DNA from: Bacteroidota bacterium
GTDB lineage: Bacteria; Bacteroidota; Bacteroidia; AKYH767-A; JAHEYN01
Direction: 5' to 3'
Length of the DNA stretch: 64,000 bases
Assembly: GCA_023251555.1 (NCBI GenBank)
Contig: JAHEYN010000001.1
Location: 75,433-139,432 of the forward strand
Shown here: piece by piece, positions 8,600 through 44,260 of the stretch
How the letters are laid out: every line of letters starts with the position of its first letter
How positions within the stretch are numbered: position 1 is the first letter of the stretch
Position numbers and translations under genes: made by a program
Notes under the pieces: model-generated
What the model was told of the DNA's origin: nothing
Databases searched by the model: none
What the model saw: the letters and a program-made list of their open reading frames with translations, nothing else

Positions 8600-8604
8600 C
8601 ATTA

Positions 8605-8637: not shown

Positions 8638-8643
8638 TAAATC

Positions 8644-9618: not shown

Positions 9619-9630
9619 ATTACAAATTAC

Positions 9631-9672: not shown

Positions 9673-9681
9673 ACAATAGGT

Positions 9682-25632: not shown

Positions 25633-26850
25633 TTATTTTTTCAGGATAACTTCCCCATAGAGGTTTTCGTAGGCAGCATACATTGTACGTACATCGTATC
25701 TTGTTTTTACAGTCACGGATGCTTTTTCACCGGTCTTTCTTGCCTCATGTAAATTCTCAAGGCTGGCTTTAGTTATATTTATTGCTTCTTCCGGGTTATC
25801 CGGATTAAAGAGTATGCCATTCCCATCCTGTAGCTGTTCGGTGATCCCGCCTACAGATGAGCCGATAACACAGACTCCGCAGCTCATAGCAGCGAGCACT
25901 GTCAGCGGAAAATTTTCGGCCCGTGAGGAGAAAAAGAGAAAATCAATTTCATTAAACAGATTACACAGGTCGGTTTTATTATTCATATAAGCATGATACA
26001 CCGCCTTTTTCGAGTTGGGTTTTGTCCGCAGCGGAGGGCCGATTATATGCAAATCAAAATCGCCCTTTATCCGGGAAAACACAAAATCGAGAATATCGGA
26101 TCCTTTAAAGGGGCTGTCAGAATTGATTATAAGTACTCTGGGAGTTTCCCACCTTCTCCCGTGTTTATTGATGAATGCTGAACTGTCAATGCATTCATGA
26201 ATCATTTTCACGTTCATGGAGTGATCATAGACGGATGAAGCGGTTAAACATTCCCTGAGCCAGTTTGATCCGGGCACGAAAACGATATTCCGGGAGATTG
26301 ATTTGTATATCTTTTTTTTCTTTTCTATGTAGTGCTGTCTCCGGTCAATTAAAGGATTGTAAAGGGGATAGGCATAGTCATAGGGGGTTGTCCCGATTCC
26401 CTTCCGGTAGTTTTCATCGCCAAATGTAAAAGCTTCTCCTCCCGTGAGCGCCCACATGTCATGAAGTGACCATACAATGGGTTTTTCTGCAGCAATGTCA
26501 ATCAGCGCATCCAGGTCGAAGTACCCTCCATGTATGTTATGAAGGTGGATAATTCCGGCCTCCCGGTAGGCCTTCATTTCTCTCAGCTTACGCACTGTGA
26601 AATTAAACTCTTCTCCAAGAGAAAATATTTGCCGGAGAGTCTTTTTTATGCCTGCCTTCCAGAGCACTTTATCCGCTAAAGAAAGGCTTTGATCCAGCAG
26701 TGAGGAGGGGAGTTCGATGACTTTTTCAGAAGAGGTTCTTCTGGATTTCACCAGCAACCTGCAATCCATTCCGGAAAAGTGTACAAAATCGTACGAAAAT
26801 TGTTCAGCGCCCCCACCGCTATCGTAGGTATTTACATGTAAAATCTTCAT
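25633..26850 (-). CDS. Glycosyltransferase family 4 (GT-B, group 1).
   Basis: It has a C-terminal E-x7-E-type block (FFSSRAENFPLTVLAAMSCGVCVIGSSVGGITEQL). Confidence 0.7.
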   Translation of the reverse strand: MKILHVNTYDSGGGAEQFSYDFVHFSGMDCRLLVKSRRTSSEKVIELPSSLLDQSLSLADKVLWKAGIKKTLRQIFSLGEEFNFTVRKLREMKAYREAGIIHLHNIHGGYFDLDALIDIAAEKPIVWSLHDMWALTGGEAFTFGDENYRKGIGTTPYDYAYPLYNPLIDRRQHYIEKKKKIYKSISRNIVFVPGSNWLRECLTASSVYDHSMNVKMIHECIDSSAFINKHGRRWETPRVLIINSDSPFKGSDILDFVFSRIKGDFDLHIIGPPLRTKPNSKKAVYHAYMNNKTDLCNLFNEIDFLFFSSRAENFPLTVLAAMSCGVCVIGSSVGGITEQLQDGNGILFNPDNPEEAINITKASLENLHEARKTGEKASVTVKTRYDVRTMYAAYENLYGEVILKK

Positions 26851-27809
26851 TTCCCCGAATACTCTTCCAGAATTCTTTTTTGCTCTTTCACCCAGTCTCT
26901 GAATCTGTATCCATACGAATAGCGGGTCATCTGTTCTATTGCTGAGGAATCAAAAATGGTATCTCCCGATTCTGTTTCCAGGGACAGCGGCGGCCAGGGG
27001 CTATGTATCACCCTGACCCCGTAAATGCGGGCAATGGCTTTTGCGACATTTGAAATACTCAGTGTGTCGGGTCCCCCGATGTTCAGAATCCGGTTTCTCG
27101 ATTTGCCGGACAGAATGGCGCTAAGAAGTATATTTATTAAGTCTTCAATATGAATAAAAGATCTTTTTTGCAGTCCGCTGCCAAAAATTACAATGTCTTT
27201 CTTTTCCGCTGCCTGTGATAAAAAATGTCCAAGTGTCCCATACGAGGTTTTCCCGTCTATTTTATTCCCATACGGGACACAGATCCTGAAGATTGAATAA
27301 GTCATCCCGAAACAGTTATGATAAATATGAAGGATGTTTTCGCAGAAAAATTTATTCAGGGAATATATTGTCTTGAAGGCCAGTTCCCCATCCTCTCTGA
27401 CAGGAATATTCTTTTTCCCTTTGTAAACAAGTCTTGTAGACGGGAAGATGATACGGGACTTACTTTTTGTCTTTCTCATTGCAGAAAGTATATTCAGAAG
27501 TCCTTTCTCGTTTACATCAATAAAGTCGGCATATTTTTCAAATCCGGCAGTAGTTCCTGTAAGTCCCGAGAAAACAAAAGTATAGTCAGACCGGAAATTT
27601 ATTTTCTCAACGGAAGCCGGTTCTCTGATATCAACGGAGGCGTAATGTTCGTGGTGGTCAATAGAATTTTGCTGAAGATCATACAGAAAGCATTTGCACT
27701 CTAAGGCTTTTAATGTACTGACAATGTGCCTTGCAATGTAGCTGTTGGCGCCGATAACAGTGAATGACTTTCCTTTTAACTTTCTTCGGACGGAGGGCGT
27801 AAGCATCAT
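26847..27809 (-). CDS. NAD(P)-dependent epimerase/dehydratase (SDR) family protein. It is a candidate NDP-sugar 4-ketoreductase or epimerase.
   Basis: It has an N-terminal Rossmann block (FTVIGANSYIARHIV) and a YxxxK motif. It overlaps its neighbour by 4 nt. Confidence 0.6.
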   Translation of the reverse strand: MMLTPSVRRKLKGKSFTVIGANSYIARHIVSTLKALECKCFLYDLQQNSIDHHEHYASVDIREPASVEKINFRSDYTFVFSGLTGTTAGFEKYADFIDVNEKGLLNILSAMRKTKSKSRIIFPSTRLVYKGKKNIPVREDGELAFKTIYSLNKFFCENILHIYHNCFGMTYSIFRICVPYGNKIDGKTSYGTLGHFLSQAAEKKDIVIFGSGLQKRSFIHIEDLINILLSAILSGKSRNRILNIGGPDTLSISNVAKAIARIYGVRVIHSPWPPLSLETESGDTIFDSSAIEQMTRYSYGYRFRDWVKEQKRILEEYSGK

Positions 27810-27810
27810 G

Positions 27811-28788
27811 TCATTTTTTTAACACCTTCTCGTACAGGCCTGAGATGATTTTCATCCTGTTTATTATTTCTTCGCCCTGGTTGATTTTGCCTGCTTGTCC
27901 AGGTTGATTGACTTTAAGTGCAAAATCATCAAGCATGAGCTCAAACTGGTTAGCTGCTTCAATGGGAATCAGCTTCCTTTCATTTTGTTTTATGACTACA
28001 ATGTCTCCCTGTTCTTGGGGAGGTCTTGAAAAGACCCGTTCGGCGGACAGGTATCCGCTGCTGCCCCAAAGGCAATAGCTGTTCCTGTACATAAGCCCGA
28101 ACCCGTATACAATGTGAGCGGTGATATCGCCTAAGACAAGCTGAATGGCACCCCGCTCATCAATACCCATCCTGGAATTATATTGTATAGCCGGGAATAT
28201 CCCGGACGGGGTGCTGCCTGTAATATTCATGCAAAAGCTCAGGGGGTATATCAGGTTGTCGAGAATGGCACCCCCGCCCAGTTCCGGTTTATTCCTGATA
28301 TCTTCTGCCGGCGGGTAAGGGAATCCAAAATAAGCATCAATATGCCTGAGGTTGCCAATTTCATTACTGTTTACAAGGGAGTGTACTTTTTTGTAAAGAG
28401 GATGATAAATGTAGACCAGGGCTTCCATTGCGACGAGTTTTTTTGCGGCCGCCAGGTCAATTAAATGTTGTGTTGTTTTGAGGCTGTGGGTAAAAGGTTT
28501 TTCCATCAGCAGGTGCTTTCCGGCATTTAATACCTTAAGCCCCCATTCATAGTGAAGGGCTGCGGGAAGAGACACGTAAACCGCAGTTACTTCCGGGTCA
28601 TCAAGGAGGTTCTCATAGGTTCCGGGTTTGCAGGAGTATTTCCGTGAAAACTCAAGGGCCTTTTCCGGGCTTCTTGAAGCTACGCATGCAAGTTCCAGTT
28701 TTTTGCTGTTGCATATCGCAGGCAACACCAGCCTGTCTGCTATAGAGCTGCATCCCAGGACACCTATTTTTATTTTATTGTTATTCAT
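27811..28788 (-). CDS. Gfo/Idh/MocA-family oxidoreductase, possibly an NDP-hexose 3-ketoreductase acting with the adjacent 2,3-dehydratase.
   Basis: It has KIGVLGCSSIADRLVLPA…LLMEKP, the classic Gfo/Idh/MocA N-terminus. The ketoreductase role is an inference from gene context. Confidence 0.7.
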   Translation of the reverse strand: MNNNKIKIGVLGCSSIADRLVLPAICNSKKLELACVASRSPEKALEFSRKYSCKPGTYENLLDDPEVTAVYVSLPAALHYEWGLKVLNAGKHLLMEKPFTHSLKTTQHLIDLAAAKKLVAMEALVYIYHPLYKKVHSLVNSNEIGNLRHIDAYFGFPYPPAEDIRNKPELGGGAILDNLIYPLSFCMNITGSTPSGIFPAIQYNSRMGIDERGAIQLVLGDITAHIVYGFGLMYRNSYCLWGSSGYLSAERVFSRPPQEQGDIVVIKQNERKLIPIEAANQFELMLDDFALKVNQPGQAGKINQGEEIINRMKIISGLYEKVLKK

Positions 28789-30166
28789 GGTAGCTGATGC
28801 ATGAAATAAGGCTTCTCGCCTCTATATTTACGTATCCCGGCTGCATTACCAGTTGTTTTATCTGCCTGAGGGTTGCCCACATAAAGCCCGGCTGCAGAGG
28901 AATGTCATCTGTTGTTAAAACAACCATATGCAGGTTTTGGACCCTGTAAAAACGGCCTCCTTCATCTGACTGCATGGATGATATAATAATATTTTTCTTT
29001 TCCGGTGCGATAAAATACTTTGCAAACAATTCGGGTGAAGATGCGAGATATGACAATGGAATTCCCTGGATCGTCGGCCCTATCTCTGCTCCATTAATGC
29101 TGCCCGGTTCCTCTTTACCCCTTACAAGGAAATGCAGAATATCATTTATTTTTTTGGCAAGCATTCCATGAATCCGGATATGAGAATCGCAGATGACAGG
29201 CTGGGTCCAGGATCCGACTTCTCTTTCAGCCATAATGCTTAATGCGATAATTTTAAAATCCGGATCAGGACCGCAGGAAAACTCCATATCAGTCCGGTTA
29301 ATATGGGCCATGTTTTTTATAGATTTAAGCTTCGCTTTTATCTCAGAATGTGTCTTCATCTCGTCTATCCATGACTTAAAACCTGCTGCGTCTGTGTATG
29401 TCCCGTCCAGGTTTAAAGAGGAAATGAATAAGTCTTTTCCATGAGGGGAAGGAGTGTTTTTTCTGAAGGAATCATATAATAAGCCGGCGTCTTTTAACGT
29501 ATATTTTTCTTCTTCCTCACCTAACAGGATACCTGAAATAATACTGCGGGCGTTCATGTTTACCACATTATCCTCCTTAATAAATCTGAGAATTTGAGAC
29601 AGCGTCATCCACTGAAACCCGGGGAGCAGCTCAATATGTTCGCTTTCGTCGTATATACGGATAGAATTCCTGTTCTCTTTTTTGAAAAACCTGCTTGCCT
29701 GTTCAGAAAGAGGAAGGTCAAACAGGGTATTTTTATCCGACAGGAAATAATCCAGGTATGGAACAGGTTTTCCCTTATGAACCGCAGTGTAGTTGCTTTT
29801 GGTAGCTTGTACGGTGGGGGAGAGCTGAACTTCCCCGATGTTTCCGGGTTCAAATTTAAATTGCATCAGAAAGTGAAGAATGCCATTGACCTTTTTACCT
29901 AGTATTCCAAGTATTCCTGTTTCAGGTTGATTTAATATAAGCTGCTCTCTTCTGCCCGGGCCGGAGGTTTGCCCGTAGCTTAGACCCTGTACGGTAAAAA
30001 ATTTTCCCGACTCATGCACAAGATTTCCGTTAGCGTCAAAATGCCATTTCAGAAGCTTGCTAAAAGGGATGCGTATTGTTTTAGAGTGCTTTATTTCATG
30101 GGCTGTGCGGGTGGTTGAAGAATCTGAAAAAATGGAGGAAAGAATATCCACGTTGATTTTTCTCAT
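28781..30166 (-). CDS. NDP-hexose 2,3-dehydratase family protein (EvaA/TylX3-like) with two tandem homologous halves.
   Basis: Internal duplication is visible: GILGILGKKVNGILHFLMQFKFEPGNIGEVQLSPTVQATKSNY is echoed by HGMLAKKINDILHFLVRGKEEPGSINGAEIGPTIQG. Its length of about 460 aa is typical for this family. Confidence 0.55.
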   Translation of the reverse strand: MRKINVDILSSIFSDSSTTRTAHEIKHSKTIRIPFSKLLKWHFDANGNLVHESGKFFTVQGLSYGQTSGPGRREQLILNQPETGILGILGKKVNGILHFLMQFKFEPGNIGEVQLSPTVQATKSNYTAVHKGKPVPYLDYFLSDKNTLFDLPLSEQASRFFKKENRNSIRIYDESEHIELLPGFQWMTLSQILRFIKEDNVVNMNARSIISGILLGEEEEKYTLKDAGLLYDSFRKNTPSPHGKDLFISSLNLDGTYTDAAGFKSWIDEMKTHSEIKAKLKSIKNMAHINRTDMEFSCGPDPDFKIIALSIMAEREVGSWTQPVICDSHIRIHGMLAKKINDILHFLVRGKEEPGSINGAEIGPTIQGIPLSYLASSPELFAKYFIAPEKKNIIISSMQSDEGGRFYRVQNLHMVVLTTDDIPLQPGFMWATLRQIKQLVMQPGYVNIEARSLISCISYHE

Positions 30167-30184
30167 GACTGCCTGGGGAGTACG

Positions 30185-30994
30185 CTATTGTTTTGTGCGA
30201 AAGGCAAATATGTTGAACTGAAGGTCAATTCCCATGTAACTGTGAATTTCCTTAAAGGGCTGCGGAGAATGGCCAACGGGTAGTGCATGCACCCGGAACC
30301 CGGCCTTGTGAAGGACAGCCAGCAACTCATGCAGCGACTGTTCTTTTCCTTCAAAAGAATGGTATTCAATGAACAGGTGATCCACATTGATAAGCATACC
30401 GGCACAATCTTTTAAGACTGTGGTTTCTGCTCCTTCGATATCTATTTTCAGAAAATCCACTTTTTCATTTTCAAGAAAATTTCTCAGGCGTAATGTCTTT
30501 ATGAAACTGTTACCGGGTTTGTTGTCTGAAAGGGATGAAATTCTTCCTCCGTCAGCGCCTTCAGAAGTGAAATGCAGTGTTGTTTCTTCATTCCACACGC
30601 CGTAATTCATCAGCTTTACATTATCAAGTTTGAAGGAATTAACATTAGAATCAAGGGCGGCAAAGATTAAAGGGTCTGGTTCAAATGCAAGGATCTTTGC
30701 CTGCGGGTACAACCGTTTGAAGTAGATAATGCTGAGCCCTATGTTGGCTCCGCAGTCGATAATATAAGGAGCATTACTCCGCGCAGAAAAATTATAAATG
30801 CATTTCCTGAAGATTTCATGGTAAGTGAAGACAAAAGATGCCCCATCCGTAAGCGTGAGCTCATGTCCGAGTATGTTGGTTTTCAGCGTGGTGTATCTCG
30901 GCTTTCCGGAAATTCTTGATAGTTCACGGAACTCAGGGTCAAAGAGATATTTGGCCGGATTAATTAGCAGCTTACGCAGAACATTTTTCAACAT
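30185..30994 (-). CDS. FkbM-family SAM-dependent methyltransferase.
   Basis: It has IIDCGANIGLSIIYF, FEPDP and FLKIDIEGAE. Confidence 0.7.
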   Translation of the reverse strand: MLKNVLRKLLINPAKYLFDPEFRELSRISGKPRYTTLKTNILGHELTLTDGASFVFTYHEIFRKCIYNFSARSNAPYIIDCGANIGLSIIYFKRLYPQAKILAFEPDPLIFAALDSNVNSFKLDNVKLMNYGVWNEETTLHFTSEGADGGRISSLSDNKPGNSFIKTLRLRNFLENEKVDFLKIDIEGAETTVLKDCAGMLINVDHLFIEYHSFEGKEQSLHELLAVLHKAGFRVHALPVGHSPQPFKEIHSYMGIDLQFNIFAFRTKQ

Positions 30995-31025
30995 ACAGGG
31001 TCAGTTAACAGGAACATGGAGACTT

Positions 31026-32171
31026 TCAGAAAGTCAGGAAAGATACAAATTCATTTACTCTTTTCTGAAAGGAATGTGTGCTGCATGTTTTTTTCTGTCC
31101 TTCAAGGGCAATTTTTTTTCTTTCAGATTCATGCCTGAGCAGGTAATTTACCTTCTCTATACATTCATCTATGGTTTTGTAGGTCACGACTTCTTTTCCG
31201 GGTTCGAAAAAATCACGGATGTTTTCTTTCCAGTCAGTGATAAGGCAGGTGCCTGCTCCTGTTGCTTCGACCATCCGGATATTGGCGGCATTTTTTCCTG
31301 CAGCGTCAATGTGGGAGTTAAAGGTGAGCCTGGAGTCAGCAAGTGTCTGATACATTGCCAGGCCGAACAATCCGCCATGGTTTTTTCCCTGGAGGCGGAG
31401 TACATCCCTGTACTCTTTAAACCGCAACTGCTTTAGTCTTGAAAGTTGTTCGCGTGAAAAATAATTTTTTTTCGTATCAAGCATGTTAATCCACAGCTCT
31501 ATCGGCGTTTTACGGGCAAGATTTGTGATGTCACGAAAGCGTTTATGGTGTGCATTCTGATAAAAGCTGATTGAGCCGACAAAGCTTAATTCGTGTACAG
31601 GCGGCCTTGAAATAATATGATCTAAGATGGAACTTTCAAAACCAAATTTAAAGTAATAGCCTTTATACCCTGTTGTTTTATTATAAAACTCTGCACAGTC
31701 TGATATGCATGACAGAATAATATCACTGCCTTCATATTTCTCCGGGTTATTGTATTGCAATCCATCCCATCCAAGGATGATTTTAACTGAGGGGCAATTT
31801 TTTCTTATCCTCTTTCTGAACGAAGGATTTATTATTTCATAGTCATGTGCAAAAAATATTTCAGGCTCGAACTCCATAATCTGCGCTTCAAGGATTTCTT
31901 GCTGCCATTTCTCAGGGTTGTACTTTAAATTCCGCTCTTTTGCCCACTGCTTTTGGAGTGTCCCGGCGTTGGTAATTATTTCCAAGGCTTCAAACTTTCC
32001 GGTCAGTTCCAGGTTTTTTTTCCAGAAGTTGCTCCATCCAAAGCAGTCAGACATGATTTCCTCAAGCTGAAGTGTATAGTTCTTTTTTCCGAGCTCCGGC
32101 CTGGTATTATATAAAAAACTAAGGTATTGCGGATAGAAAGAAGAAGCCTTTAAAAATTTCGTTTTCCCCAT
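31026..32171 (-). CDS. Putative glycosyltransferase of the GT1/CgeB-like type. The GT-B C-terminal half is recognisable.
   Basis: The C-terminal block RMVEATGAGTCLITD…FEPGKEVVTYKTIDECIEKVNYLL resembles group-1 GT C-termini. The N-terminal half is not assignable. Confidence 0.4.
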   Translation of the reverse strand: MGKTKFLKASSFYPQYLSFLYNTRPELGKKNYTLQLEEIMSDCFGWSNFWKKNLELTGKFEALEIITNAGTLQKQWAKERNLKYNPEKWQQEILEAQIMEFEPEIFFAHDYEIINPSFRKRIRKNCPSVKIILGWDGLQYNNPEKYEGSDIILSCISDCAEFYNKTTGYKGYYFKFGFESSILDHIISRPPVHELSFVGSISFYQNAHHKRFRDITNLARKTPIELWINMLDTKKNYFSREQLSRLKQLRFKEYRDVLRLQGKNHGGLFGLAMYQTLADSRLTFNSHIDAAGKNAANIRMVEATGAGTCLITDWKENIRDFFEPGKEVVTYKTIDECIEKVNYLLRHESERKKIALEGQKKTCSTHSFQKRVNEFVSFLTF

Positions 32172-32234
32172 GAATTACACATTGTCAGTCAGCAAATTCC
32201 GGATTAAGGTTATCCCCGATGCGGGGCATATCAT

Positions 32235-33176
32235 ATGTTATCCAAAATAAAAAAAGAAATTGAGATGAACAAATGGGATACCTCATACCCATTTTTTCAC
32301 GGGAGGCTTTACCCCTTAAAAAAAACTATCTTTGCTGGTAACAATTCTGGCTATATGTTATCGCGCAAGACTGTCATTGACAGCAACAGGGCCGGCTCCC
32401 ATGTGAGTATCAGAGAACTATACCGCTACAGGGACCTCTTCATTACGCTTGCTTACCGTGATTTCAAGGTCCGCTACGCCCAGACCTTCCTTGGGTTTTT
32501 ATGGGCAATCCTCCAGCCGTTGGTAACGCTGCTTATTTTTATCGTGGTTTTCCAGAGAGCAATAAAAATAGAAACAGGTAATATTCCTTACCCGGTATAT
32601 GTCCTTGCAGGAATGACGATATGGTCCTATTTTTCTTTTGTCATGGTGCAGGCAGGGCAATCTATCATATCTGCCCAGCAGATGGTACAGAAAATATTTT
32701 TCCCCAGGCTGGTCATACCGGTTTCAAAAGCTGTAGTCGGACTGGTAGATTTTCTCATTTCACTTATGCTTCTTTTTCTGGCCATGTGGTACTATCATTA
32801 TATTCCTGCGGCACATGCCGTTTTTATTCCGCTGGTGGTCGTATTACTAATAATGTTTTCTCTTGGTATCGGCATCTGGCTTAGTGCACTGACAGTCCGC
32901 TTCCGGGACTTTCAGCATATCATTCCTTTTGTTGTCCAGATTGGACTATATGCCACCCCGGTTGCTTATCCGTCTTCAGTAATCCCGGAAAAATATCATC
33001 TTATATATTACCTGAACCCTGTGACAGGTATTGTGGACATTTTCCGGTGGAGCCTGCTGGGTACGGAAATGAACAGGTTTTATGTTTGTATTTCCATGTC
33101 TGTTGCCGTACTGATCCTCCTGACATCCTTTTGGTATTTCAGGAAAACAGAACGTGTGATGGCGGATATAGTATGA
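32235..33176 (+). CDS. wzm: ABC-2 type polysaccharide exporter permease (Wzm/TagG/KpsM-like). The start is probably an internal Met near 32355.
   Basis: It has RELYRYRDLFITLAYRDFKVRYAQTFLGFLWAILQPL (a Wzm signature) and 6 TM segments. Confidence 0.75.
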   Translation: MLSKIKKEIEMNKWDTSYPFFHGRLYPLKKTIFAGNNSGYMLSRKTVIDSNRAGSHVSIRELYRYRDLFITLAYRDFKVRYAQTFLGFLWAILQPLVTLLIFIVVFQRAIKIETGNIPYPVYVLAGMTIWSYFSFVMVQAGQSIISAQQMVQKIFFPRLVIPVSKAVVGLVDFLISLMLLFLAMWYYHYIPAAHAVFIPLVVVLLIMFSLGIGIWLSALTVRFRDFQHIIPFVVQIGLYATPVAYPSSVIPEKYHLIYYLNPVTGIVDIFRWSLLGTEMNRFYVCISMSVAVLILLTSFWYFRKTERVMADIV

Positions 33177-33183
33177 TGCATTT

Positions 33184-34428
33184 ATGAGCAACATTTCTTT
33201 ACAGATAGAAAATATCTCCAAGCGCTATCTTATAGGCAGGAAGGTCAGTGCTTCCCTGAGTGAGACGGCAGGGAAATTTATCAATTATTTTTCAGGTGGG
33301 AGGGATAGAAAAAGTACTTCCGTTTTCTGGGCGCTGAAAGATGTTTCTTTCTCTGTGAAAGAAGGAGAGGTTGTTGGGATTATTGGAAAAAACGGTGCAG
33401 GGAAGAGCACCCTCCTGAAGATTCTCTCGAGGATAACGGAACCCACAAAGGGTAGAATAGAAATCAACGGAAGGGTGGCTTCTCTTCTTGAGGTTGGAAC
33501 GGGATTTCATCCTGAGCTTACCGGCCGGGAAAATATTTACCTCAACGGAACCATTCTGGGAATGAGCCGCAGGGAGGTGAAAAGCAAGTTTGATGAAATA
33601 GTTGACTTCAGCGGGGTGGAGCGTTTTATCGACACCCCTGTCAAGAGGTATAGCAGCGGCATGTACGTGCGTCTTGCTTTTGCCGTTGCAGCCCACCTTG
33701 AACCTGAAATACTGCTTGTAGACGAAGTGCTTGCAGTGGGAGATGCGGAGTTTCAGAAAAAATGCCTCGGGAAAATGAATGAAGTCTCCCAAAGCGGGAG
33801 AACAATTCTATTCGTAAGCCACAACATGGGGGCCATCAGCGAACTATGCTCTAGAGCTGTTTTCCTGCAGAACGGAGGTGTAAAAATGGATGATGAGGTA
33901 AATAAGGTATTAGGGGCTTATCTGGAAGATTATGAGGATGTCGCTAATTCGGTGGAGATAACCTCCCTTCCTGACAGCATTTGCGTTTTCAATAAAGTCA
34001 TGGTTGCCGGGGAAGACGGGAAAAGCAGGTTCGAATACCTTCTCGGCGATCCTATACAGGTGCATATTTCATATGCCATCCGGGGGGATTACAAAGATTT
34101 TAATATTGAGTTTAATTTATTCAGGGGTGTTAACTGCGTTTTCACAACTTTTAATACAGACACGGGTGATCCTGTTGAATACTGGAGGAAAGGAAAATAT
34201 TCGGCTGTTGTCCAAATCCCCGGCGGATTGCTGAAAGCAGGGCATTATGTTATCAGCCTTAAGATGAGAAGAAACAGTGATGGAGCGCATTTACACGGAT
34301 TACATGAGGTGGTCGGGTTTAAAATTTCTGAGGTGAATGTGAATCTCACACACGTAGGCTACCAGCAGGACAGGGCAGGGGATATTATTTTCCCGGGTAA
34401 CTGGAATATCATCAAACAGGAAAAATAA
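33184..34428 (+). CDS. wzt: ABC transporter ATP-binding protein Wzt with a C-terminal ~170-aa extension, putatively a glycan-terminus-binding domain.
   Basis: It has Walker A GKNGAGKST, the ABC signature YSSGM, Walker B ILLVDE and a non-NBD C-terminal domain. Confidence 0.8.
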   Translation: MSNISLQIENISKRYLIGRKVSASLSETAGKFINYFSGGRDRKSTSVFWALKDVSFSVKEGEVVGIIGKNGAGKSTLLKILSRITEPTKGRIEINGRVASLLEVGTGFHPELTGRENIYLNGTILGMSRREVKSKFDEIVDFSGVERFIDTPVKRYSSGMYVRLAFAVAAHLEPEILLVDEVLAVGDAEFQKKCLGKMNEVSQSGRTILFVSHNMGAISELCSRAVFLQNGGVKMDDEVNKVLGAYLEDYEDVANSVEITSLPDSICVFNKVMVAGEDGKSRFEYLLGDPIQVHISYAIRGDYKDFNIEFNLFRGVNCVFTTFNTDTGDPVEYWRKGKYSAVVQIPGGLLKAGHYVISLKMRRNSDGAHLHGLHEVVGFKISEVNVNLTHVGYQQDRAGDIIFPGNWNIIKQEK

Positions 34429-34437
34429 TTTACAAAA

Positions 34438-35232
34438 ATGCTGTCTCGTATTATCCTGCCATTAAGAATGTTGCGATCTGATATGGCGATCTATTGGAGG
34501 AGAAAAAATTATACCCCTTTGCTCCCCCTTAGTGAGAAGCAGAAAAAATGCCTCGATATATTGAGGAGAGACGGCATCTGCACAGTTGAGAATTACTGGA
34601 CGGCAGAGCGGTGCACTGAATTCAGGGAATTACTGGAGAAGGAGGTGCAGGAGCAGAAAGACCGCAATTATGATAATGGTGCATATATACGCTTTAACCG
34701 TGGCAAGAACCCCAAAGACCAGGGTGTGGTGAGAATCTATCATGCAGAAAAGTTCCTCCCGCCGCTCGGGGATTTCAGGAATGACCCGTTTATTCTCGGG
34801 ATTGCATCTGCGTATTTTGGTATCCCCATGTTCAGCGGTTTTGTTGCATTCCAGCACAACCTTCCTTCGGTTTCCGATACCCGCGAATATCATGTTGACT
34901 GGTGGGAAAAAGAATTCAAAGCGTTTATATATCTCGGGGATGTGGATTTGACTAATGGTCCTTTTGCATACATCCCCGGTTCACACAGGGCTTATTTTTC
35001 CCGGTATAGAAAAGTCTTTTTGAGCGGAAAGGGATTGGCAGACACCAGTTTCTTTGCCAGAGATCTCGGAGGGTGGATGGATCGTGAAAAAATTATGACA
35101 GGTAAGGCGGGAACCCTTCTTCTCGCCGATGTTACAGGTTTTCACCGCGGCCTTCCGCAAACAGGGAGGACAAGGTCATTGCTGTACAACAATATTTATC
35201 CGAAAAAGGAAGATATTTTTCCTGATCGTTAA
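34438..35232 (+). CDS. Hypothetical protein, possibly a PhyH-like Fe(II)/2-oxoglutarate oxygenase.
   Basis: It has an HxD (YHVDW) and a distal His (GFHRG) with spacing reminiscent of PhyH. The assignment is weak. Confidence 0.3.
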   Translation: MLSRIILPLRMLRSDMAIYWRRKNYTPLLPLSEKQKKCLDILRRDGICTVENYWTAERCTEFRELLEKEVQEQKDRNYDNGAYIRFNRGKNPKDQGVVRIYHAEKFLPPLGDFRNDPFILGIASAYFGIPMFSGFVAFQHNLPSVSDTREYHVDWWEKEFKAFIYLGDVDLTNGPFAYIPGSHRAYFSRYRKVFLSGKGLADTSFFARDLGGWMDREKIMTGKAGTLLLADVTGFHRGLPQTGRTRSLLYNNIYPKKEDIFPDR

Positions 35233-35310: not shown

Positions 35311-35390
35311 TTAAATCCTGCCTTCGCATTCCGCTACGGCAGACAAGAGAGTCGGGCCTTGCCCTGAGGTTAATGCCAACTTATAAACAA
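35311..35390 (+). repeat. Palindromic intergenic repeat element, copy a (diverged).
   Basis: It shares the …ctgccttcgcattccgctacggcagacaagaga-gtcgggccttgccctgaggttaatgccaac… consensus with the copies at 51.0, 56.8, 57.7 and 64.0 kb. Confidence 0.7.
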
Positions 35391-36657: not shown

Positions 36658-38166
36658 TCATAAAGGTTTATTTAGACCGCATAACTTTTCAATCTGCGAT
36701 TTCATATACGTGCAATCTGCTATGATTTTTTCATCATCATCCAGGATTTTTCCGGCAGGCTGAGCTATTTTTTTCAGCAGGGCATCGGGCGATGTTATAT
36801 ATTCAATGTAATCCCGGCTGATAAAGTCATAAAAACATTCGTATCCGTTTTTAGTGAGCACTACGCTTGGTACATTAAATGAGAGGGCCTCCATTGCCAC
36901 GGTGGAGTCGAGGGTTACATGCAGGTTTGCTTTTTCAAGTAAAAGATAAAGGTTAACCCGGGAAGATTGATGCACCAGGATATTTTCGGGGAAGGGATAC
37001 CCAAATTCTGTTTTCAGCCAGTCTTCAACTTCGGGGAAATGGGGATGTAATCGTATAATCCAAAGTATTTCACTGCCTGACTTCCTGATAGTATTAATAA
37101 CTACGTTGCTAAAAATAAGCTTGTCATACCCCGGCATATTGTTTAGGGTAATGAGTATCATTTTTGAGGATTTATTAATACTCTCTTTTAGGCTTTGCGG
37201 GAAGGAACAAAGGCTGCGGTTATTTCTGATAAAGCAGAGGTATGGATTTCCGCCAAGGATAGGTTTATGTTTTGATAATGACGCATTCCATTTCTCCAGG
37301 TTTCGTAAGGAGTTCCTGTCCCAAACCCAAAAATAATCGGGTAAAAGCTGATATCCTTCAGGAGGGACATTCAGCCATTTGACGTATGCGAAGTGAGTAT
37401 TGCCATGCACTCCATGCTGGATTTCTATACTTTTTATTTTTAATTTTCCGGCTGCGAATATAGCGGCCATGTTTTTTTCGGAGTAATAAATATCCGTAAA
37501 AAGATGTTCAGGCCGGATCTCCGAAAAGAGTTTCTCGAAAGCTTCCGAATACCGGTAAATGAGTTCTGTTTTCTCGGCACACGCTTCCTCCGGGAAATCA
37601 AACACAATCAATTTTGACGAAAGAAAATCAATGAATTCAGGATACCGGTTTATTGTTTTTTGCCTGAGTGAAGGAAAAGAGAAGAGCAGATTCCGGAACA
37701 ATTCTTTCTCAAGAAATTCGTCTGCATTGAAAACATCTGCCCTTCCCGGCTTTTCAACATCTCCGTCATAGGCAAAAGATTCCATGTAAAAACATTTTCC
37801 GTAACCATGCAACAGGTAACCAATGCTTTCCGTGCAGCGGTTAAAAAATTTTTCATTAATCAGTTCGGATCTGTGGCTGGAAAGTCCGTACAGAATAAAC
37901 CTGGCTGAAAATGGCCTGGATCTTTTTCCCCTGTGCCGGAAGCGTTTTCTGAGAAGCCAGAAAAGGTCGGCATAATGTTTCCTCAGTCTCGAGAGTGGAG
38001 TGCGGTTACCTGTATTTTTCCGCGGGCTCTTTTTCAGATGGTTATAAAGTTCGAGCCTGATAACGGGCCAGGCGTAGAGTTCTTTGTATTTCAGACTGTT
38101 GACATCGAAATTCAACTCAATATCATTGAGGATCCTGATAATTTCCTTTTCATCAACGCTCTGCAT
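36658..38166 (-). CDS. Putative polysaccharide-modifying transferase (TagF/KpsC/KpsS-like GT-B fold); hypothetical.
   Basis: It has IIRLHPHFPE and a C-terminal VTLDSTVAMEALSFNVPSVVL block like CDP-glycerol glycerophosphotransferase and capsule-synthesis families. The match is low-specificity. Confidence 0.3.
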   Translation of the reverse strand: MQSVDEKEIIRILNDIELNFDVNSLKYKELYAWPVIRLELYNHLKKSPRKNTGNRTPLSRLRKHYADLFWLLRKRFRHRGKRSRPFSARFILYGLSSHRSELINEKFFNRCTESIGYLLHGYGKCFYMESFAYDGDVEKPGRADVFNADEFLEKELFRNLLFSFPSLRQKTINRYPEFIDFLSSKLIVFDFPEEACAEKTELIYRYSEAFEKLFSEIRPEHLFTDIYYSEKNMAAIFAAGKLKIKSIEIQHGVHGNTHFAYVKWLNVPPEGYQLLPDYFWVWDRNSLRNLEKWNASLSKHKPILGGNPYLCFIRNNRSLCSFPQSLKESINKSSKMILITLNNMPGYDKLIFSNVVINTIRKSGSEILWIIRLHPHFPEVEDWLKTEFGYPFPENILVHQSSRVNLYLLLEKANLHVTLDSTVAMEALSFNVPSVVLTKNGYECFYDFISRDYIEYITSPDALLKKIAQPAGKILDDDEKIIADCTYMKSQIEKLCGLNKPL

Positions 38167-38193: not shown

Positions 38194-39033
38194 TTATTTT
38201 CCGGGGCACACAAATGTATAGATGGTAAACTTTCCGCTGGGTTCTTTACAGCGTTCAACGGATAGTACTTCATACCCGCATATATTACATAACATGACCA
38301 GGCTTAAGGGCGAATATACATGGTAGTGTCCATAGCCGAAGGCTTCGTTATCGGGCCCATCTTCAAAAAAACTCAATGTATCAGGAAGTTCGATGTACAG
38401 GATACCATTGCCGGCGAGATATTTTTTTACTTCTTTCAGGAATGATACGGGGTCGAAAATATGTTCAAGTACCCGGTTGAGCGTAATCAGACTGAATTTT
38501 CCGGTTGTGCCTACATCGCTGAGATAACCTTTTACCACCCTGGCTTCCGGCATGTGTTTCTGAATATGCGCAGATGCGTGGGGGTCAGGCTCTACCGCTG
38601 TTCCCTGCCATTTTTCAGCTGACAGGAATTTGTACAGGAAAACACCCATCCCTGCGCCGATATCAAGTACTGTATACTGTTTTTCTTTTTGCAGGGGCTG
38701 GTAATTTTCAATGAAAGCATTTATGCGCTTCACTCTTGCATGGTTGTCTGATTTTTCTTCGGGGAGATTAATTACAAAGCTGAATCGTTTCTCAAAAAAC
38801 TCTTCAGGTGTTCCTTCTGCCCCGTAATAAAATCCTTCAGAGTAAACATTTTCATAGTCAGGAGTGTCGTGCAGGTACATCAACCGGCAGAAACTGCATT
38901 CGCTGTAACGTGCAGGGGTTTTACGCCTTGTTTCAGTTATTGCGAACTTGTCTTCGCGCGAAACAGTAAAATCTCTTATTGTTTCTTTAGTGCCGCATAC
39001 AGGGCATGAGGAAACGGGTTTAGTTTCTTTCAT
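38194..39033 (-). CDS. Class I SAM-dependent methyltransferase with an N-terminal Cys4 zinc-ribbon.
   Basis: The ribbon is CPVCG…CSFC. The MTase motif I is VLDIGAGMGVF and the post-I acidic residue is in TAVEPD. Confidence 0.65.
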   Translation of the reverse strand: MKETKPVSSCPVCGTKETIRDFTVSREDKFAITETRRKTPARYSECSFCRLMYLHDTPDYENVYSEGFYYGAEGTPEEFFEKRFSFVINLPEEKSDNHARVKRINAFIENYQPLQKEKQYTVLDIGAGMGVFLYKFLSAEKWQGTAVEPDPHASAHIQKHMPEARVVKGYLSDVGTTGKFSLITLNRVLEHIFDPVSFLKEVKKYLAGNGILYIELPDTLSFFEDGPDNEAFGYGHYHVYSPLSLVMLCNICGYEVLSVERCKEPSGKFTIYTFVCPGK

Positions 39034-39364
39034 CGAGCCATTCTATAAGGGTTTCCCGGTGTTTACGGAGGTAATTTTTAAATGAACCTGTTTTACCATA
39101 TTCCACGAGCATTATAAAATACCTGTTTGTACTGTTTTTTACGAGAGCTGTTTTGTAGCCTTCCTTCATCAGGCGGGAGTTTATAGAAGGAGTTGCATAA
39201 TATCCCCATGATTTAGCCACGATATCATAGTTGGCGCCTTTGCTGCTGCGAAGTGTAATTTGTTCATCAGCCTCTATGGTTATGGATCCGAAATCTCTTA
39301 TAACGACCCTGCCTTTTTTGTCGGGCTTGAATTTTCTTGGACTCCTGAGAATATTCAGCTTCAT
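39020..39364 (-). CDS. Hypothetical protein (114 aa) with no recognisable motif. It is translationally coupled into the operon.
   Basis: It is an ORF only, with a 4-nt gap or overlap to its neighbours. Confidence 0.3.
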   Translation of the reverse strand: MKLNILRSPRKFKPDKKGRVVIRDFGSITIEADEQITLRSSKGANYDIVAKSWGYYATPSINSRLMKEGYKTALVKNSTNRYFIMLVEYGKTGSFKNYLRKHRETLIEWLDERN

Positions 39365-39367
39365 TGT

Positions 39368-40525
39368 TCAGATGGGAGTATTGGAAAACCTGTCGGGAAC
39401 TTTATCTCCTCCAATCCATCCTTCAATATACCATTCCCCGTTTGAATCCTTTTTCCATATATTTTTATTGCGGAATTTTTCCGCAGTTTCCCAGAAACTT
39501 TTTTCAGTAATATTAATTTGCCTGCAGAAGGCGGCAATATATTCCTTAGGCGGCTTCACGCCATCTCTTTCTTTTACCAGCCTGACCGCTTCCTCTCTTG
39601 TCATACGCCCTTTCCTGATTTCATTGGAGGCATTGTCGGTAATCCTGTTGAAGCCGAATTTAAGCCACTTGAAATAGTGATGAATGACAATATTCATGCA
39701 GTCCAGGTCGGCATAATCATAAAGCCCCATGACAGGCCCCTTCTCTCTTACTTTAAACCCATAGCGCACTGCCACTTCCATGTTTGTTTTTGCATCCCAT
39801 GGAATATAATACCCAAGGAAGATGGGATGATACCCGATACTCTCCAGTTCATTATCCTCTGGATAAATCATAGATTGAATTTCAAAAGCAGAAAGGTTAT
39901 CGCTGACCCAGTCTTCCCACGATCGCCCTTTCAGGATATCATGTTTTTTCAAGAAATCCCTGTTAAGCCTTGCTACTTCAAAATCTGATTCTGAGCCCCC
40001 GTATTCCATGAGCGGGTTTTCTCCCCATATTATTAATGGAATTCCAAGTTTTACAGCAAGGTTTGGGATGATACTGTATATGGCAAGGTGATCTACAAGT
40101 GAGCAATCTCCAAGTTCGTTGAAAGCTTTTTTTGTGAGTTTGTTTATTCCCACAGGATTGGGAGAGAAATCTACGTGGTCAACTCCTATGTTTCTGAGAG
40201 CCTGGAGGTTTTCCTCTCCTCTCGGGGTTCGTGCAAGTGTTCTGAAAGTGATACAGAGCGGATTCATACGGTACTCGTTTTTTACCATATGAACCTGATA
40301 GGTGCTGTCCTTTCCGCCGCTTACGGGTACAATACAGTCATATTTTCCCGGTATATTTAAGCGATACTTGTCAAATATTTCACCGAGAGACTTTTTTCTT
40401 GCGTCCCAGTCAATGGATGCCATCTTTTTTTCCGATGCAATACATGCGCTGCAGATACCATTTTCATTAAATTCAATGTGCGGACGGGAGTCAGGGGTTA
40501 CGCACCGTTTGCAATACTTTAGCAT
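39368..40525 (-). CDS. N-acetyl sugar amidotransferase (PP-loop ATP pyrophosphatase; WbuX/PseA-like).
   Basis: It has an N-terminal CxxC…CxxC ribbon (CKRCVTPDS…CSAC) and a PP-loop SGGKDS. Confidence 0.65.
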   Translation of the reverse strand: MLKYCKRCVTPDSRPHIEFNENGICSACIASEKKMASIDWDARKKSLGEIFDKYRLNIPGKYDCIVPVSGGKDSTYQVHMVKNEYRMNPLCITFRTLARTPRGEENLQALRNIGVDHVDFSPNPVGINKLTKKAFNELGDCSLVDHLAIYSIIPNLAVKLGIPLIIWGENPLMEYGGSESDFEVARLNRDFLKKHDILKGRSWEDWVSDNLSAFEIQSMIYPEDNELESIGYHPIFLGYYIPWDAKTNMEVAVRYGFKVREKGPVMGLYDYADLDCMNIVIHHYFKWLKFGFNRITDNASNEIRKGRMTREEAVRLVKERDGVKPPKEYIAAFCRQINITEKSFWETAEKFRNKNIWKKDSNGEWYIEGWIGGDKVPDRFSNTPI

Positions 40526-43235: not shown

Positions 43236-43243
43236 AGATTTAT

Positions 43244-44257: not shown

Positions 44258-44260
44258 AGG

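What the first reader, a model, noticed from the sequence alone, without database searches (positions are those of the whole stretch)
30185..34428. Wzm/Wzt ABC exporter whose ATPase carries a C-terminal extra domain, next to an FkbM methyltransferase: a chain-terminator-dependent glycan pathway
Wzt here is 414 aa. The first ~245 aa are a standard NBD with Walker A, Q-loop, signature and Walker B. The remaining ~170 aa form a separate domain. In the established E. coli O8/O9a model, the Wzt C-terminal domain binds a methyl or phosphomethyl cap added by WbdD. Export is then coupled to chain termination and chain-length control.

This locus contains an FkbM-family methyltransferase directly upstream of the divergent wzm promoter. 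Two further Zn-ribbon methyltransferases lie deeper in the operon and are candidate terminators. By inference, this organism makes an ABC-transporter-dependent O-antigen-like polymer with a methylated non-reducing terminus. The divergent 60-bp region 32172-32234 should hold both promoters.
Basis: partly seen in the sequence, partly recalled or inferred. Interest (0 to 1): 0.5.

Follow-up and report, generated by a model that had tools for sequence, protein, structure and literature searches.

The report
Glycan exporter with cap-binding domain
This is a genuine two-gene ABC exporter for a lipid-linked surface sugar chain whose ATPase carries a domain that reads the chain's end, but comparison with related loci suggests that the end mark is made by a rare oxygenase encoded just after the exporter, not by the nearby FkbM methyltransferase.

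Summary

Several details are wrong:
- A glycosyltransferase gene lies between FkbM and wzm.
- wzm probably starts at 32355, which makes the divergent region about 183 bp.
- The two other methyltransferases sit in a separate, convergent operon.

Cap-dependent export is a reasonable inference from the CBD. FkbM as terminator is not supported. Its orthologues (46-66% identical) occur in loci whose CBDs are unrelated (10-21%), including two loci with the same FkbM/dideoxy-sugar/GT4 cassette. The window's CBD subtype recurs only where a rare PhyH-like Fe/2-oxoglutarate dioxygenase follows wzt. That dioxygenase is linked to wzm/wzt and to nonulosonic-acid genes in nearly every locus seen.

The tryptophan that binds the methyl cap in the Aquifex CBD aligns with glycine here, and arginines line the site. 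My best guess is an acidic, dioxygenase-tailored cap. This rests on few loci and no experiment.

The parts
32355..33176 (+). wzm, the ABC-2 permease. The ORF is open from 32235 and a gene caller used 32265. The start at 32355 (273 aa) is favoured.
   Evidence: PF01061 E 2e-19. Matches solved TarG and A. aeolicus Wzm. Six homologues start at Met41.
33184..33933 (+). wzt nucleotide-binding domain (aa 1-250)
   Evidence: PF00005. Walker A, signature, Walker B and H-loop present. Matches 8dku and 6amx NBDs, E about 1e-70 and 1e-66.
33934..34428 (+). wzt C-terminal carbohydrate-binding domain (aa 251-414). It belongs to a subtype with the motifs RRxxDGxH and GDI[IV]FPGxW.
34438..35232 (+). PhyH-like Fe(II)/2-oxoglutarate dioxygenase, third gene of the wzm-wzt operon. 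It is my candidate cap-tailoring enzyme.
   Evidence: PF05721 at 27.6 bits, above the cut-off of 22. H152-x-D154...H236 and R246 are invariant. Fold matches EctD, proline hydroxylase, GriE, SnoK and KanJ. Linked to wzm/wzt in six loci including the window.
32172..32354 (.). Probable divergent control region. It contains a TAnnTTTG -7 box at 32327-32334(+) for wzm and a one-mismatch box, TTATTTTG, at 32250-32243(-).
   Evidence: No sigma-70-like site. No Rfam match. No unusual RNA fold, z -1.2.
31026..32171 (-). Glycosyltransferase-like gene (Glyco_trans_1_2), first gene of the leftward operon. It lies between wzm and FkbM.
   Evidence: PF13524 E 2e-26. No solved relative.
30185..30994 (-). FkbM-family SAM methyltransferase.
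   Evidence: PF05050 and TIGR01444. 4509 homologues. Conserved next to a GT4 gene in seven loci, but does not co-vary with the CBD.
25633..30166 (-). 2,6-dideoxyhexose cassette plus GT4: NDP-hexose 2,3-dehydratase, GFO/MocA reductase and SDR reductase/epimerase, then the GT4 glycosyltransferase.
   Evidence: Pfam. The same cassette occurs with FkbM in L012 and L013 at 47-57% identity.
36658..38166 (-). 502-aa putative glycosyltransferase, a possible nonulosonic-acid transferase.
   Evidence: Weak DUF6716 and BFO_1060-family hits. 28% identical, E 1e-46, to the gene next to the TPR-PhyH fusion in L017. No solved relative.
38194..44257 (-). Convergent precursor operon segment: Zn-ribbon methyltransferase (279 aa), a 114-aa ORF, WbuX-type N-acetyl-sugar amidotransferase, a second methyltransferase (299 aa), AsnB-type amidotransferase and a NeuB-type nonulosonic acid synthase.

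Best explanation
**Shown**
- The three genes wzm, wzt and the PhyH-like gene lie head to tail on the + strand, 7 and 9 nt apart, in a Bacteroidota-like organism.
- Wzm is the ABC-2 permease.
- Wzt is the ATPase, fused to a Wzt-type carbohydrate-binding beta-sandwich (CBD).

**Inferred from the characterised E. coli O9a, Klebsiella O12 and A. aeolicus systems**
- They form one operon.
- A glycan is built on undecaprenyl phosphate at the cytoplasmic face.
- A terminal modification stops elongation.
- The CBD dimer binds that terminus.
- ATP hydrolysis then drives the chain through the Wzm channel.

**My commitment, inferred from comparative evidence only**
- The terminus read by this CBD is not a methyl group added by FkbM.
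- It is probably an acidic end residue, most likely a nonulosonic acid derivative made by the NeuB / amidotransferase / methyltransferase operon and possibly transferred by the 502-aa protein.
- The PhyH-like dioxygenase encoded directly after wzt probably tailors that residue.
- FkbM belongs instead to a conserved module (FkbM, dideoxyhexose genes, GT4) that supplies an O-methylated sugar elsewhere in the chain.
- Whether the product ends up on LPS, on proteins or as a capsule cannot be told from the window.
For: **Exporter and CBD**
- Searches support the NBD motifs, the permease and the match to solved Wzt.
- Searches support the CBD fold and family.

**Operon**
- The gaps are 7 nt (wzm-wzt) and 9 nt (wzt-PhyH).

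**PhyH-like family**
- It is small: 8 clusters in the word-indexed search, 26 representatives at E<=1e-30 among 1.84 billion, and one locus among 185,579 species genomes.
- wzm and/or wzt lie beside it in six of the seven loci where its upstream neighbours can be read. These are the window, L001, L004/L005, the P0122 contig, L007 and L009/L010. L017 is the exception.

**CBD subtype**
- The window's CBD is 45% and 39% identical to those of L001 and L004, where the PhyH gene follows wzt directly. It is 14-20% identical to all other linked Wzt.

**FkbM cassette**
- It is conserved in L012 and L013 alongside unrelated CBDs.

**Nonulosonic-acid genes**
- These genes (NeuB, PseB-like plus DegT, PseG/PseH, CMP-sugar synthetase) accompany the PhyH gene in the window, L001, L007, L008/L009 and L017.

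**Binding pocket**
- A. aeolicus Trp362 aligns with Gly372, His350 with Arg362 and Ala348 with Lys360. RRxxDGxH is invariant in the three-locus subtype (residues from PMC9445017).

**Precedents**
- Kdo, a related ulosonic acid, is a known chain-terminating cap (PMC9445017, PMC11231755).
- KdoO is an Fe/2-oxoglutarate dioxygenase that hydroxylates a ulosonic acid after transfer (PMC8533242).
Against: - All evidence for the cap's identity is associative and rests on few loci: three for the CBD subtype and two for the shared cassette.
- The three loci with the window-type CBD also have the most similar NBDs (67-69% against 58-64%). Shared descent of the whole operon could therefore explain the pattern without any functional coupling.
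- L007 and L010 have PhyH homologues but CBDs of another type.
- No CMP-nonulosonate synthetase was found in the window, so a complete nonulosonic-acid pathway is not shown here.
- L004 has wzm-wzt-PhyH with no sugar genes nearby.
- The pocket mapping rests on alignments at 15-19% identity. I did not check it on coordinates.
- The PhyH model is only moderately confident (pLDDT 72), and its substrate is unknown.
- FkbM-family enzymes can methylate chain ends. V. cholerae RfbT is FkbM-family (PMC12146696). In L016 an orthologue sits directly after wzt.
Confidence: 0.45

Rival explanations
1. FkbM adds a methyl group to the non-reducing terminal sugar, for example the dideoxyhexose added by the GT4. 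That methyl cap stops elongation and is what the Wzt CBD recognises.
For: - FkbM-family RfbT acts in the V. cholerae O1 LPS cluster and determines the Ogawa serotype (PMC12146696). That it methylates the terminal perosamine is from my own knowledge.
- Methyl caps are the best-known CBD ligands (PMC9445017).
- Orthologues of this FkbM lie within three genes of a CBD-bearing wzt in 5 of 7 loci, and directly after wzt in L016.
- A different FkbM sits between wzt and the PhyH gene in the P0122 contig, and another sits before the PhyH gene in L008.
Against: - CBDs do not co-vary with this FkbM. FkbM is 46-66% identical across loci while the CBDs are 10-21% identical.
- L012 and L013 have the same FkbM / dideoxy-sugar / GT4 cassette but CBDs only about 15-19% identical to the window's.
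- L001 and L004 share the window's CBD type and have no FkbM nearby.
- The methyl-stacking Trp of A. aeolicus is not conserved.
- FkbM is 269 aa with no coiled coil or extra domain.
Confidence: 0.2
2. The cap is made by another enzyme of the locus, with no role for either FkbM or the dioxygenase. It could be one of the two Methyltransf_23 enzymes, or simply the addition of a nonulosonic acid by a dedicated transferase. The PhyH-like enzyme would then only decorate a precursor or an internal residue.
For: - A Methyltransf_23 gene follows the PhyH gene in L001, follows wzt in L012 and sits between wzm and wzt in L007.
- The window has two such genes.
- Addition of Kdo alone terminates the chain in Klebsiella O12 and O4 (PMC11231755).
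Against: - The window's Methyltransf_23 genes lie inside a precursor operon, next to amidotransferase and synthase genes. That position fits nucleotide-sugar tailoring better.
- L004 has the window's CBD type without any methyltransferase in view.
Confidence: 0.2
3. There is no cap. The C-terminal domain binds the repeating chain, or has only a structural or regulatory role. Export is then independent of chain termination.
For: - The domain falls below Pfam's Wzt_C cut-off on its own: 17.6 bits for the full-length protein and 19.9 bits for the C-terminal segment alone, against 30.4.
- The known cap-binding residues are not conserved.
- No coiled-coil terminator was detected.
Against: - In every characterised case a Wzt CBD goes with a capped substrate (PMC9445017).
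- The fold match is specific to Wzt CBDs.
- The subtype keeps an invariant charged motif at the position of the binding site.
Confidence: 0.1

Closest known systems
Aquifex aeolicus WzmWzt O-antigen ABC transporter (PDB 7k2t, 8dku; CBD 6o14, 8dky)
   Same: - Same two-gene transporter and same domain order, NBD then CBD.
- The full-length Wzt alignment gives E 1.7e-70 over residues 47-382.
   Different: - The CBDs are only 16-19% identical.
- The 3-O-methyl pocket residues of A. aeolicus (Leu300, Thr346, Ala348, Trp362; PMC9445017) are not kept. Trp362 aligns with Gly372, Ala348 with Lys360 and His350 with Arg362.
- The window has a dioxygenase gene after wzt.
Klebsiella pneumoniae O12 / Raoultella terrigena Wzt with its Kdo cap (PDB 5hno, 5hnp) and the WbbB terminator
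   Same: - The concept of a ulosonic-acid sugar as a chain-ending cap read by the CBD (PMC9445017, PMC11231755) is the closest analogue to what I propose.
   Different: - The CBDs are 12-13% identical.
- No WbbB-like coiled-coil Kdo transferase was recognised in the window.
- The acid sugar here would be a nonulosonic acid, not Kdo, and this is not demonstrated.
E. coli O9a/O8 (Klebsiella O3/O5) Wzt-C (PDB 2r5o) with the WbdD kinase-methyltransferase terminator
   Same:
   Different: - The CBDs are 8% identical.
- No WbdD-like protein with kinase, methyltransferase and coiled-coil parts is present.
- FkbM is a single-domain 269-aa enzyme.
Vibrio cholerae O1 RfbT (WbeT)
   Same: It is an FkbM-family methyltransferase encoded in an LPS cluster, and it determines the Ogawa serotype (PMC12146696). 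From my own knowledge, it methylates the terminal perosamine of an O antigen that depends on an ABC transporter.
   Different: I did not test for orthology. From my own knowledge, the methyl group is not needed for export in V. cholerae. The window's FkbM belongs to a subfamily that is always paired with a GT4 gene.
KdoO, the Fe(II)/2-oxoglutarate Kdo 3-hydroxylase of Yersinia and Burkholderia LPS
   Same: It is a dioxygenase that hydroxylates a ulosonic acid after the sugar has been added to a lipid-linked glycan (PMC8533242). This is the nearest functional precedent for a glycan-tailoring dioxygenase.
   Different: I did not test for sequence or fold relationship. KdoO was not among the top 50 Foldseek hits, which were EctD, proline hydroxylases, GriE, SnoK and KanJ. 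KdoO acts on the LPS core, not on a chain end.
Tannerella forsythia protein O-glycosylation cluster
   Same: It is a Bacteroidota glycan locus with a similar gene set: a nonulosonic acid with an acetamidino group as the terminal sugar, AsnB (605 aa there, 606 aa here), a UDP-sugar dehydrogenase, several methyltransferases, and digitoxose in the glycan (PMC6120980).
   Different: That system uses a Wzx flippase and builds an oligosaccharide, not a Wzm/Wzt exporter with a CBD. I made no direct sequence comparison.

Membership tests
Wzm/Wzt polysaccharide ABC exporter | ATPase with Walker A, ABC signature, Walker B and H-loop, homologous to solved Wzt/TagH NBDs | tested here: met
   Motifs at 68-75, 156-160, 176-181 and 212-213. 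PF00005. 8dku E 1.7e-70 and 6amx E 9.8e-67.
Wzm/Wzt polysaccharide ABC exporter | Adjacent ABC-2 type permease gene (Wzm) | tested here: met
   PF01061 E 2e-19. Matches TarG 6jbh and Wzm 6m96, E 9e-21 and 8.5e-19. The gap to wzt is 7 nt.
CBD-bearing Wzt (Pfam Wzt_C, PF14524) | Sequence match to Wzt_C above the curated cut-off | tested here: not met
   The full-length protein scores 17.6 bits and the C-terminal segment alone 19.9 bits, against a cut-off of 30.4. However, 40 of 42 aligned homologous C-termini match, best E 6.6e-18, and the family profile hits 6o14 and 8dky at E about 1e-15. I read it as a divergent member.
CBD-bearing Wzt (Pfam Wzt_C, PF14524) | Beta-sandwich (jelly-roll) fold of solved Wzt CBDs | tested here: met
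   [not shown]
CBD-bearing Wzt (Pfam Wzt_C, PF14524) | Dimer held together by exchange of C-terminal strands | not testable with these tools
   Only a monomer model was available. It has a detached last strand (aa 407-411) after a low-confidence linker, which is compatible with strand exchange but does not prove it.
CBD-bearing Wzt (Pfam Wzt_C, PF14524) | Binds the non-reducing terminal cap of its substrate | not testable with these tools
   This needs binding assays. Residues of the A. aeolicus methyl pocket are not conserved (PMC9445017).
Polymerase-terminator assembly systems (WbdD / WbbB / Klebsiella O4 and O7 type) | Terminator enzyme carrying a coiled-coil molecular ruler | tested here: inconclusive
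   A crude heptad scan of 20 locus proteins found no convincing coiled coil. This is not a validated predictor. The feature is described in PMC11231755.
Polymerase-terminator assembly systems (WbdD / WbbB / Klebsiella O4 and O7 type) | A cap-forming activity (methyltransferase, kinase or ulosonic-acid transferase) encoded with the transporter | tested here: inconclusive
   Candidates exist: FkbM, two Methyltransf_23 enzymes, the PhyH-like dioxygenase and the 502-aa putative transferase. None can be assigned.
FkbM-family methyltransferases (PF05050 / TIGR01444) | Profile match above the curated cut-offs | tested here: met
   72.5 bits against 22.7, and 98.1 bits against 37.7.
FkbM as the cap-forming partner of this CBD | FkbM orthologues co-vary with the CBD type across loci | tested here: not met
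   FkbM is 46-66% identical across seven loci, while the CBDs are 10-21% identical outside the PhyH-linked trio.
PhyH-type Fe(II)/2-oxoglutarate dioxygenases (PF05721) | HxD...H iron-binding triad, profile match and double-stranded beta-helix fold | tested here: met
   27.6 bits against 22. H152, D154, H236 and R246 are invariant. Foldseek E about 1e-11 to EctD, proline hydroxylase, GriE, SnoK and KanJ.

The most novel reading that the evidence does not exclude
wzm-wzt-PhyH is a mobile module for export plus termination, in which a dioxygenase creates the chain-end mark. It would hydroxylate, or otherwise oxidise, the terminal residue, probably a nonulosonic acid. In some lineages an enzyme in a variable slot between wzt and the PhyH gene would then decorate that position: an FkbM methyltransferase or a sulfotransferase. 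Each combination would be read by a matching CBD type. This would add oxidative caps, and possibly sulfate caps, to the known repertoire of methyl, methylphosphate and Kdo.
Probability: 0.25. Interest if true: 0.7.

Novelty: new variant of a known kind. Interest (0 to 1): 0.42.

Why it matters
ABC-transporter-dependent glycan export with a cap-reading CBD is well understood in only a few cases: methyl, methylphosphate and Kdo caps. Thousands of uncharacterised Wzt proteins carry divergent CBDs whose ligands are unknown.

This locus on its own is an ordinary member of that class. The comparative pattern around it is a concrete, testable lead to a new kind of chain-end chemistry in Bacteroidota and beyond. 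The pattern has four parts:
- a rare dioxygenase linked to wzt in nearly every locus seen
- a matching CBD subtype with an arginine-lined site
- a variable slot holding a methyltransferase or a sulfotransferase
- constant company of nonulosonic-acid genes

It also shows why a nearby methyltransferase should not be read as the terminator by default.

Tried and rejected
- **CBD alone against solved-structure sequences (phmmer):** no hit even at E 10. A family profile and a structure model were needed.
- this compared the profile with its own parent protein and taught nothing.
- **Single-sequence scan of species genomes for the PhyH-like protein:** nothing found. The alignment-based scan gave one locus, and the metagenome scan gave three short contigs.
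- **Organism name:** an exact-sequence cluster look-up returned no names. The Bacteroidota assignment rests only on five proteins with a Por_Secre_tail domain and on the TAnnTTTG boxes.
- **Control region:** the sigma-70 scan gave no site in the divergent region and fewer sites than shuffles overall. There was no Rfam match in the window. The fold of the 183-nt region is not unusual.
- **Possible Wzt-PhyH fusions:** I suspected the long PhyH hits P0262 and P0264 were such fusions. They are TPR-PhyH fusions.
- **CMP-nonulosonate synthetase, NeuC and PseG in the window (tblastn):** none found.
- **Solved relatives of the 502-aa and 381-aa putative transferases:** none.
- **afdb50 fold library:** not available.
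- **Literature:** I found no study of a PhyH-type enzyme with Wzt, only a passing annotation in Xanthomonas LPS cassettes.

Full report
**1. What is in the sequence**

The region holds the following ORFs:

| Coordinates | Strand | Size | Identity |
|---|---|---|---|
| 30185-30994 | - | 269 aa | FkbM-family methyltransferase (PF05050 E 6e-20; TIGR01444 E 5.8e-28) |
| 31026-32171 | - | 381 aa | Glyco_trans_1_2 glycosyltransferase-like protein |
| 32235-33176 | + | 313 aa | ABC-2 permease (Wzm) |
| 33184-34428 | + | 414 aa | ABC ATPase (Wzt) |
| 34438-35232 | + | 264 aa | PhyH-family protein |

- FkbM is therefore not next to wzm. A glycosyltransferase gene lies between them.
The gaps are 7 nt (wzm-wzt) and 9 nt (wzt-PhyH), so I read the three as one operon.
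- Wzt has Walker A, signature YSSGM, Walker B and H-loop. It aligns with solved A. aeolicus Wzt over residues 47-382 at E 1.7e-70.
- Wzm matches solved TarG and Wzm permeases.

**2. The C-terminal domain**

- On its own the domain scores below Pfam's Wzt_C cut-off: 17.6 bits for the full-length protein and 19.9 bits for the C-terminal segment alone, against 30.4. It also finds nothing in the PDB by phmmer.
- Wzt homologues are very numerous. The search scored its maximum of 8000 candidates, and all passed E<=1e-10.
- Of 42 aligned C-terminal segments, 40 match Wzt_C. Their profile hits the A. aeolicus CBD structures at E about 1e-15.
- An AlphaFold model of residues 238-414 is confident (pLDDT 87.4, pTM 0.82) and is a beta-sandwich.
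- Foldseek ranks 1-17 are all Wzt CBDs: A. aeolicus 6o14 and 8dky, Kdo-cap O12 5hno and 5hnp, and O9a 2r5o.
This is a Wzt-type CBD.

**3. Start of wzm and the divergent region**

- Six Wzm homologues begin at the position of the window's Met41.
- An exact TAnnTTTG box, which I take as the Bacteroidetes-type -7 element from my own knowledge, lies at 32327-32334 on the + strand. That is 21 nt before the ATG at 32355.
- Only 42 such boxes occur in the 64-kb window on both strands.
- A box with one mismatch faces the other way at 32250-32243.
- No sigma-70-like site lies in the region.
- The organism has five proteins with type IX secretion tails, which fits Bacteroidota.
- I conclude that wzm probably starts at 32355 and that the divergent region is about 183 bp, not 63.

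**4. The rest of the locus**

- **Leftward operon.** It runs through the glycosyltransferase, FkbM, an NDP-hexose 2,3-dehydratase, a GFO/MocA reductase, an SDR reductase, a GT4, an acyltransferase and a GT2 fused to a GINT1_N domain. It then continues with an aminotransferase, a UDP-sugar dehydrogenase, an SDR and a hexapeptide acetyltransferase.
- **Convergent minus-strand operon to the right.** It holds a ceramidase-like protein, a 502-aa putative transferase, a Zn-ribbon methyltransferase, a WbuX-type N-acetyl-sugar amidotransferase (E 1e-102), a second methyltransferase, AsnB, a NeuB-type synthase, WbqC, and two aminotransferase/SDR pairs.
Only one has a full four-cysteine pattern.
- No CMP-nonulosonate synthetase was found in the window.

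**5. Which enzyme goes with the CBD?**

*The FkbM module*

- FkbM has 4509 homologues at E<=1e-10, about 50% identical across phyla.
- In six further loci (L011-L016) the orthologue is always followed by a GT4 gene. Counting the window, five of seven loci have a CBD-bearing wzt within three genes.
- L012 and L013 repeat the window's layout. wzm-wzt lies divergent from X, FkbM, 2,3-dehydratase, GFO, SDR and GT4, with 47-57% identity gene by gene.

| Compared across these loci | Identity |
|---|---|
| FkbM | 46-66% |
| Wzt NBD | 53-74% |
| Wzt CBD, outside the trio below | 10-21% |
| Window CBD against L012 and L013 | about 15-19% |

- The gene after wzt in L012 is a Methyltransf_23 gene, and in L013 it is a second FkbM, not the PhyH-like gene. 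The CBD does not follow the FkbM module.

*The PhyH-like gene*

- The window's CBD is 45% identical to that of L001 and 39% to that of L004. They share the motifs RRxxDGxH and GDI[IV]FPGxW.
- In both loci a PhyH-like gene (54% identical to the window's) follows wzt directly, and no FkbM or dideoxy-sugar cassette is nearby.
- None of 34 further Wzt homologues I read showed these motifs by eye.

**6. The PhyH-like family**

- The iron-binding H152-x-D154...H236 triad and R246 are invariant.
- The model (pLDDT 72) matches ectoine hydroxylase, proline hydroxylases, GriE, SnoK and KanJ at E about 1e-11. SnoK and KanJ act on sugars; that is from my own knowledge.
- The family is small. There are eight clusters in the word-indexed search of 5.8 billion proteins and 26 representatives at E<=1e-30 among 1.84 billion. 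Only one locus turned up among 185,579 species genomes.

Context of each locus:

| Locus | Gene order |
|---|---|
| Window, L001, L004/L005 | wzm-wzt-PhyH |
| P0122 contig | wzm-wzt-FkbM-PhyH |
| L009/L010 | wzt, sulfotransferase, PhyH, PseB-like, DegT |
| L008 | FkbM, PhyH, PseB-like |
| L007 (63% GC) | wzm, methyltransferase, wzt ... CMP-sugar synthetase, PhyH |
| L017 | FkbM, TPR-PhyH fusion, 517-aa protein, then NeuB/PseH/PseG |

- The 517-aa protein of L017 is 28% identical (E 1e-46) to the window's 502-aa protein.
- Three things therefore travel together: a CBD-bearing wzt, this dioxygenase, and nonulosonic-acid genes. A variable enzyme sometimes sits between wzt and the dioxygenase gene.

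**7. The binding site**

- In A. aeolicus the 3-O-methyl group sits in a pocket formed by Leu300, Thr346, Ala348 and Trp362. His350 and the loop 352-356 hold the sugar (PMC9445017).
- Two independent alignments are anchored on the conserved G-x-Y and F motifs. They align Thr346 with Ser358, Ala348 with Lys360, His350 with Arg362, the loop with R363-G367, and Trp362 with Gly372.
- Arg362 and Arg363 are invariant in the three-locus subtype. The Trp position is Gly or Ala.
- This argues against a simple methyl pocket and hints at an anionic ligand. It is an inference from alignments at low identity, and I did not check it on coordinates.

**8. Most likely mechanism**

- *Shown:* a Wzm/Wzt exporter with a Wzt-type CBD, apparently co-transcribed with a dioxygenase gene.
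- *Inferred from the family:* export depends on a terminal cap that the CBD reads (PMC9445017).
- *My best guess:* the cap is an acidic terminal sugar, probably a nonulosonic acid derivative, tailored by the dioxygenase. FkbM works in the dideoxy-sugar/GT4 module.
- *Precedents:* Kdo caps in Klebsiella O12 and O4 (PMC11231755), and KdoO, a dioxygenase that hydroxylates a ulosonic acid after transfer (PMC8533242).
- The gene set also resembles the Tannerella forsythia O-glycan cluster, whose glycan ends in a modified pseudaminic acid and contains digitoxose. That system uses Wzx (PMC6120980).

**9. Caveats**

- The loci are few.
- The three loci sharing the CBD type are also the closest by NBD, so common descent may explain the pattern.
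- Two loci with PhyH homologues have other CBD types.
- The nonulosonic-acid pathway is incomplete in the window.
- The characterised Klebsiella-type terminators carry a coiled coil (PMC11231755). None was seen here with a crude scan.

**10. Verdict**

- The transporter with its CBD is real, and taken alone it is ordinary, one of thousands.
- The assignment of FkbM as terminator is not supported.
- The wzt-linked dioxygenase and its matching CBD subtype form a modestly novel variant that deserves a test.

Noticed in passing
window 34438-35232; loci L001, L004, L005, L007-L010, L017: A rare PhyH-like dioxygenase family (26 representatives at E<=1e-30 in 1.84 billion proteins) lies next to wzm/wzt and to nonulosonic-acid genes in almost every locus seen. 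It became the main lead of this report.
   Followed up: yes
L010 476-1342 (same gene in L009 2-829): A Sulfotransfer_1 gene (E 7.5e-27) sits between wzt and the PhyH-like gene. This suggests a possible sulfate-bearing chain end read by a different CBD type.
   Followed up: partly
L017 1070-3007; proteins P0262, P0263, P0264: These are fusions of tetratricopeptide (TPR) repeats to the PhyH-like domain. In L017 the fusion lies beside an FkbM gene and pseudaminic-acid genes (NeuB, PseH-like, PseG-like, TylF methyltransferase).
   Followed up: partly
window 25633-30994; L012 8001-13369; L013 8001-13352: A conserved cassette of FkbM, NDP-hexose 2,3-dehydratase, GFO/MocA reductase, SDR and GT4 (47-57% identity) lies divergent from wzm/wzt in three loci. 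It implies an O-methylated 2,6-dideoxyhexose in the glycan.
   Followed up: partly
window 39368-44929: This stretch holds genes for a nonulosonic acid with an acetamidino group: WbuX-type amidotransferase (E 1e-102), AsnB (606 aa), a NeuB-type synthase scoring below both the NeuB and PseI cut-offs, and WbqC. No CMP-sugar synthetase was found anywhere in the window.
   Followed up: partly
window 7628-10659: Three tandem genes of 323-325 aa each end in a type IX secretion sorting domain. They lie in a low-GC stretch (about 31-36%). After them come an IS3-type transposase (11150-12157), a LanC-like gene (12201-12980) and an S41 peptidase (12995-14731).
   Followed up: no
window 35370-36656: A 428-aa protein inside the glycan locus has a weak match to the N-terminal part of neutral/alkaline ceramidases (27 bits, below the cut-off). 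Its role is unknown.
   Followed up: no
window 22625-24448: A GT2 glycosyltransferase is fused to a GINT1_N domain (E 9e-48). Pfam names that domain after a eukaryotic glucosamine inositolphosphorylceramide transferase.
   Followed up: no
window 49381-49388(-), 61815-61822(-), 41459-41466(-): Exact TAnnTTTG boxes lie 17-60 nt upstream of minus-strand gene starts at 49323, 61798 and 41418. This is consistent with Bacteroidetes-type promoters at operon heads.
   Followed up: partly
window 54001-58000: A low-GC segment (about 40%) holds a Bro-N domain protein (54918-55730) and is followed by several short ORFs. It may be a remnant of a mobile element.
   Followed up: no
window 24-1112: The window opens with dnaN (DNA polymerase III beta subunit), so the glycan locus lies within about 30 kb of a gene that often marks the replication origin region.
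   Followed up: no
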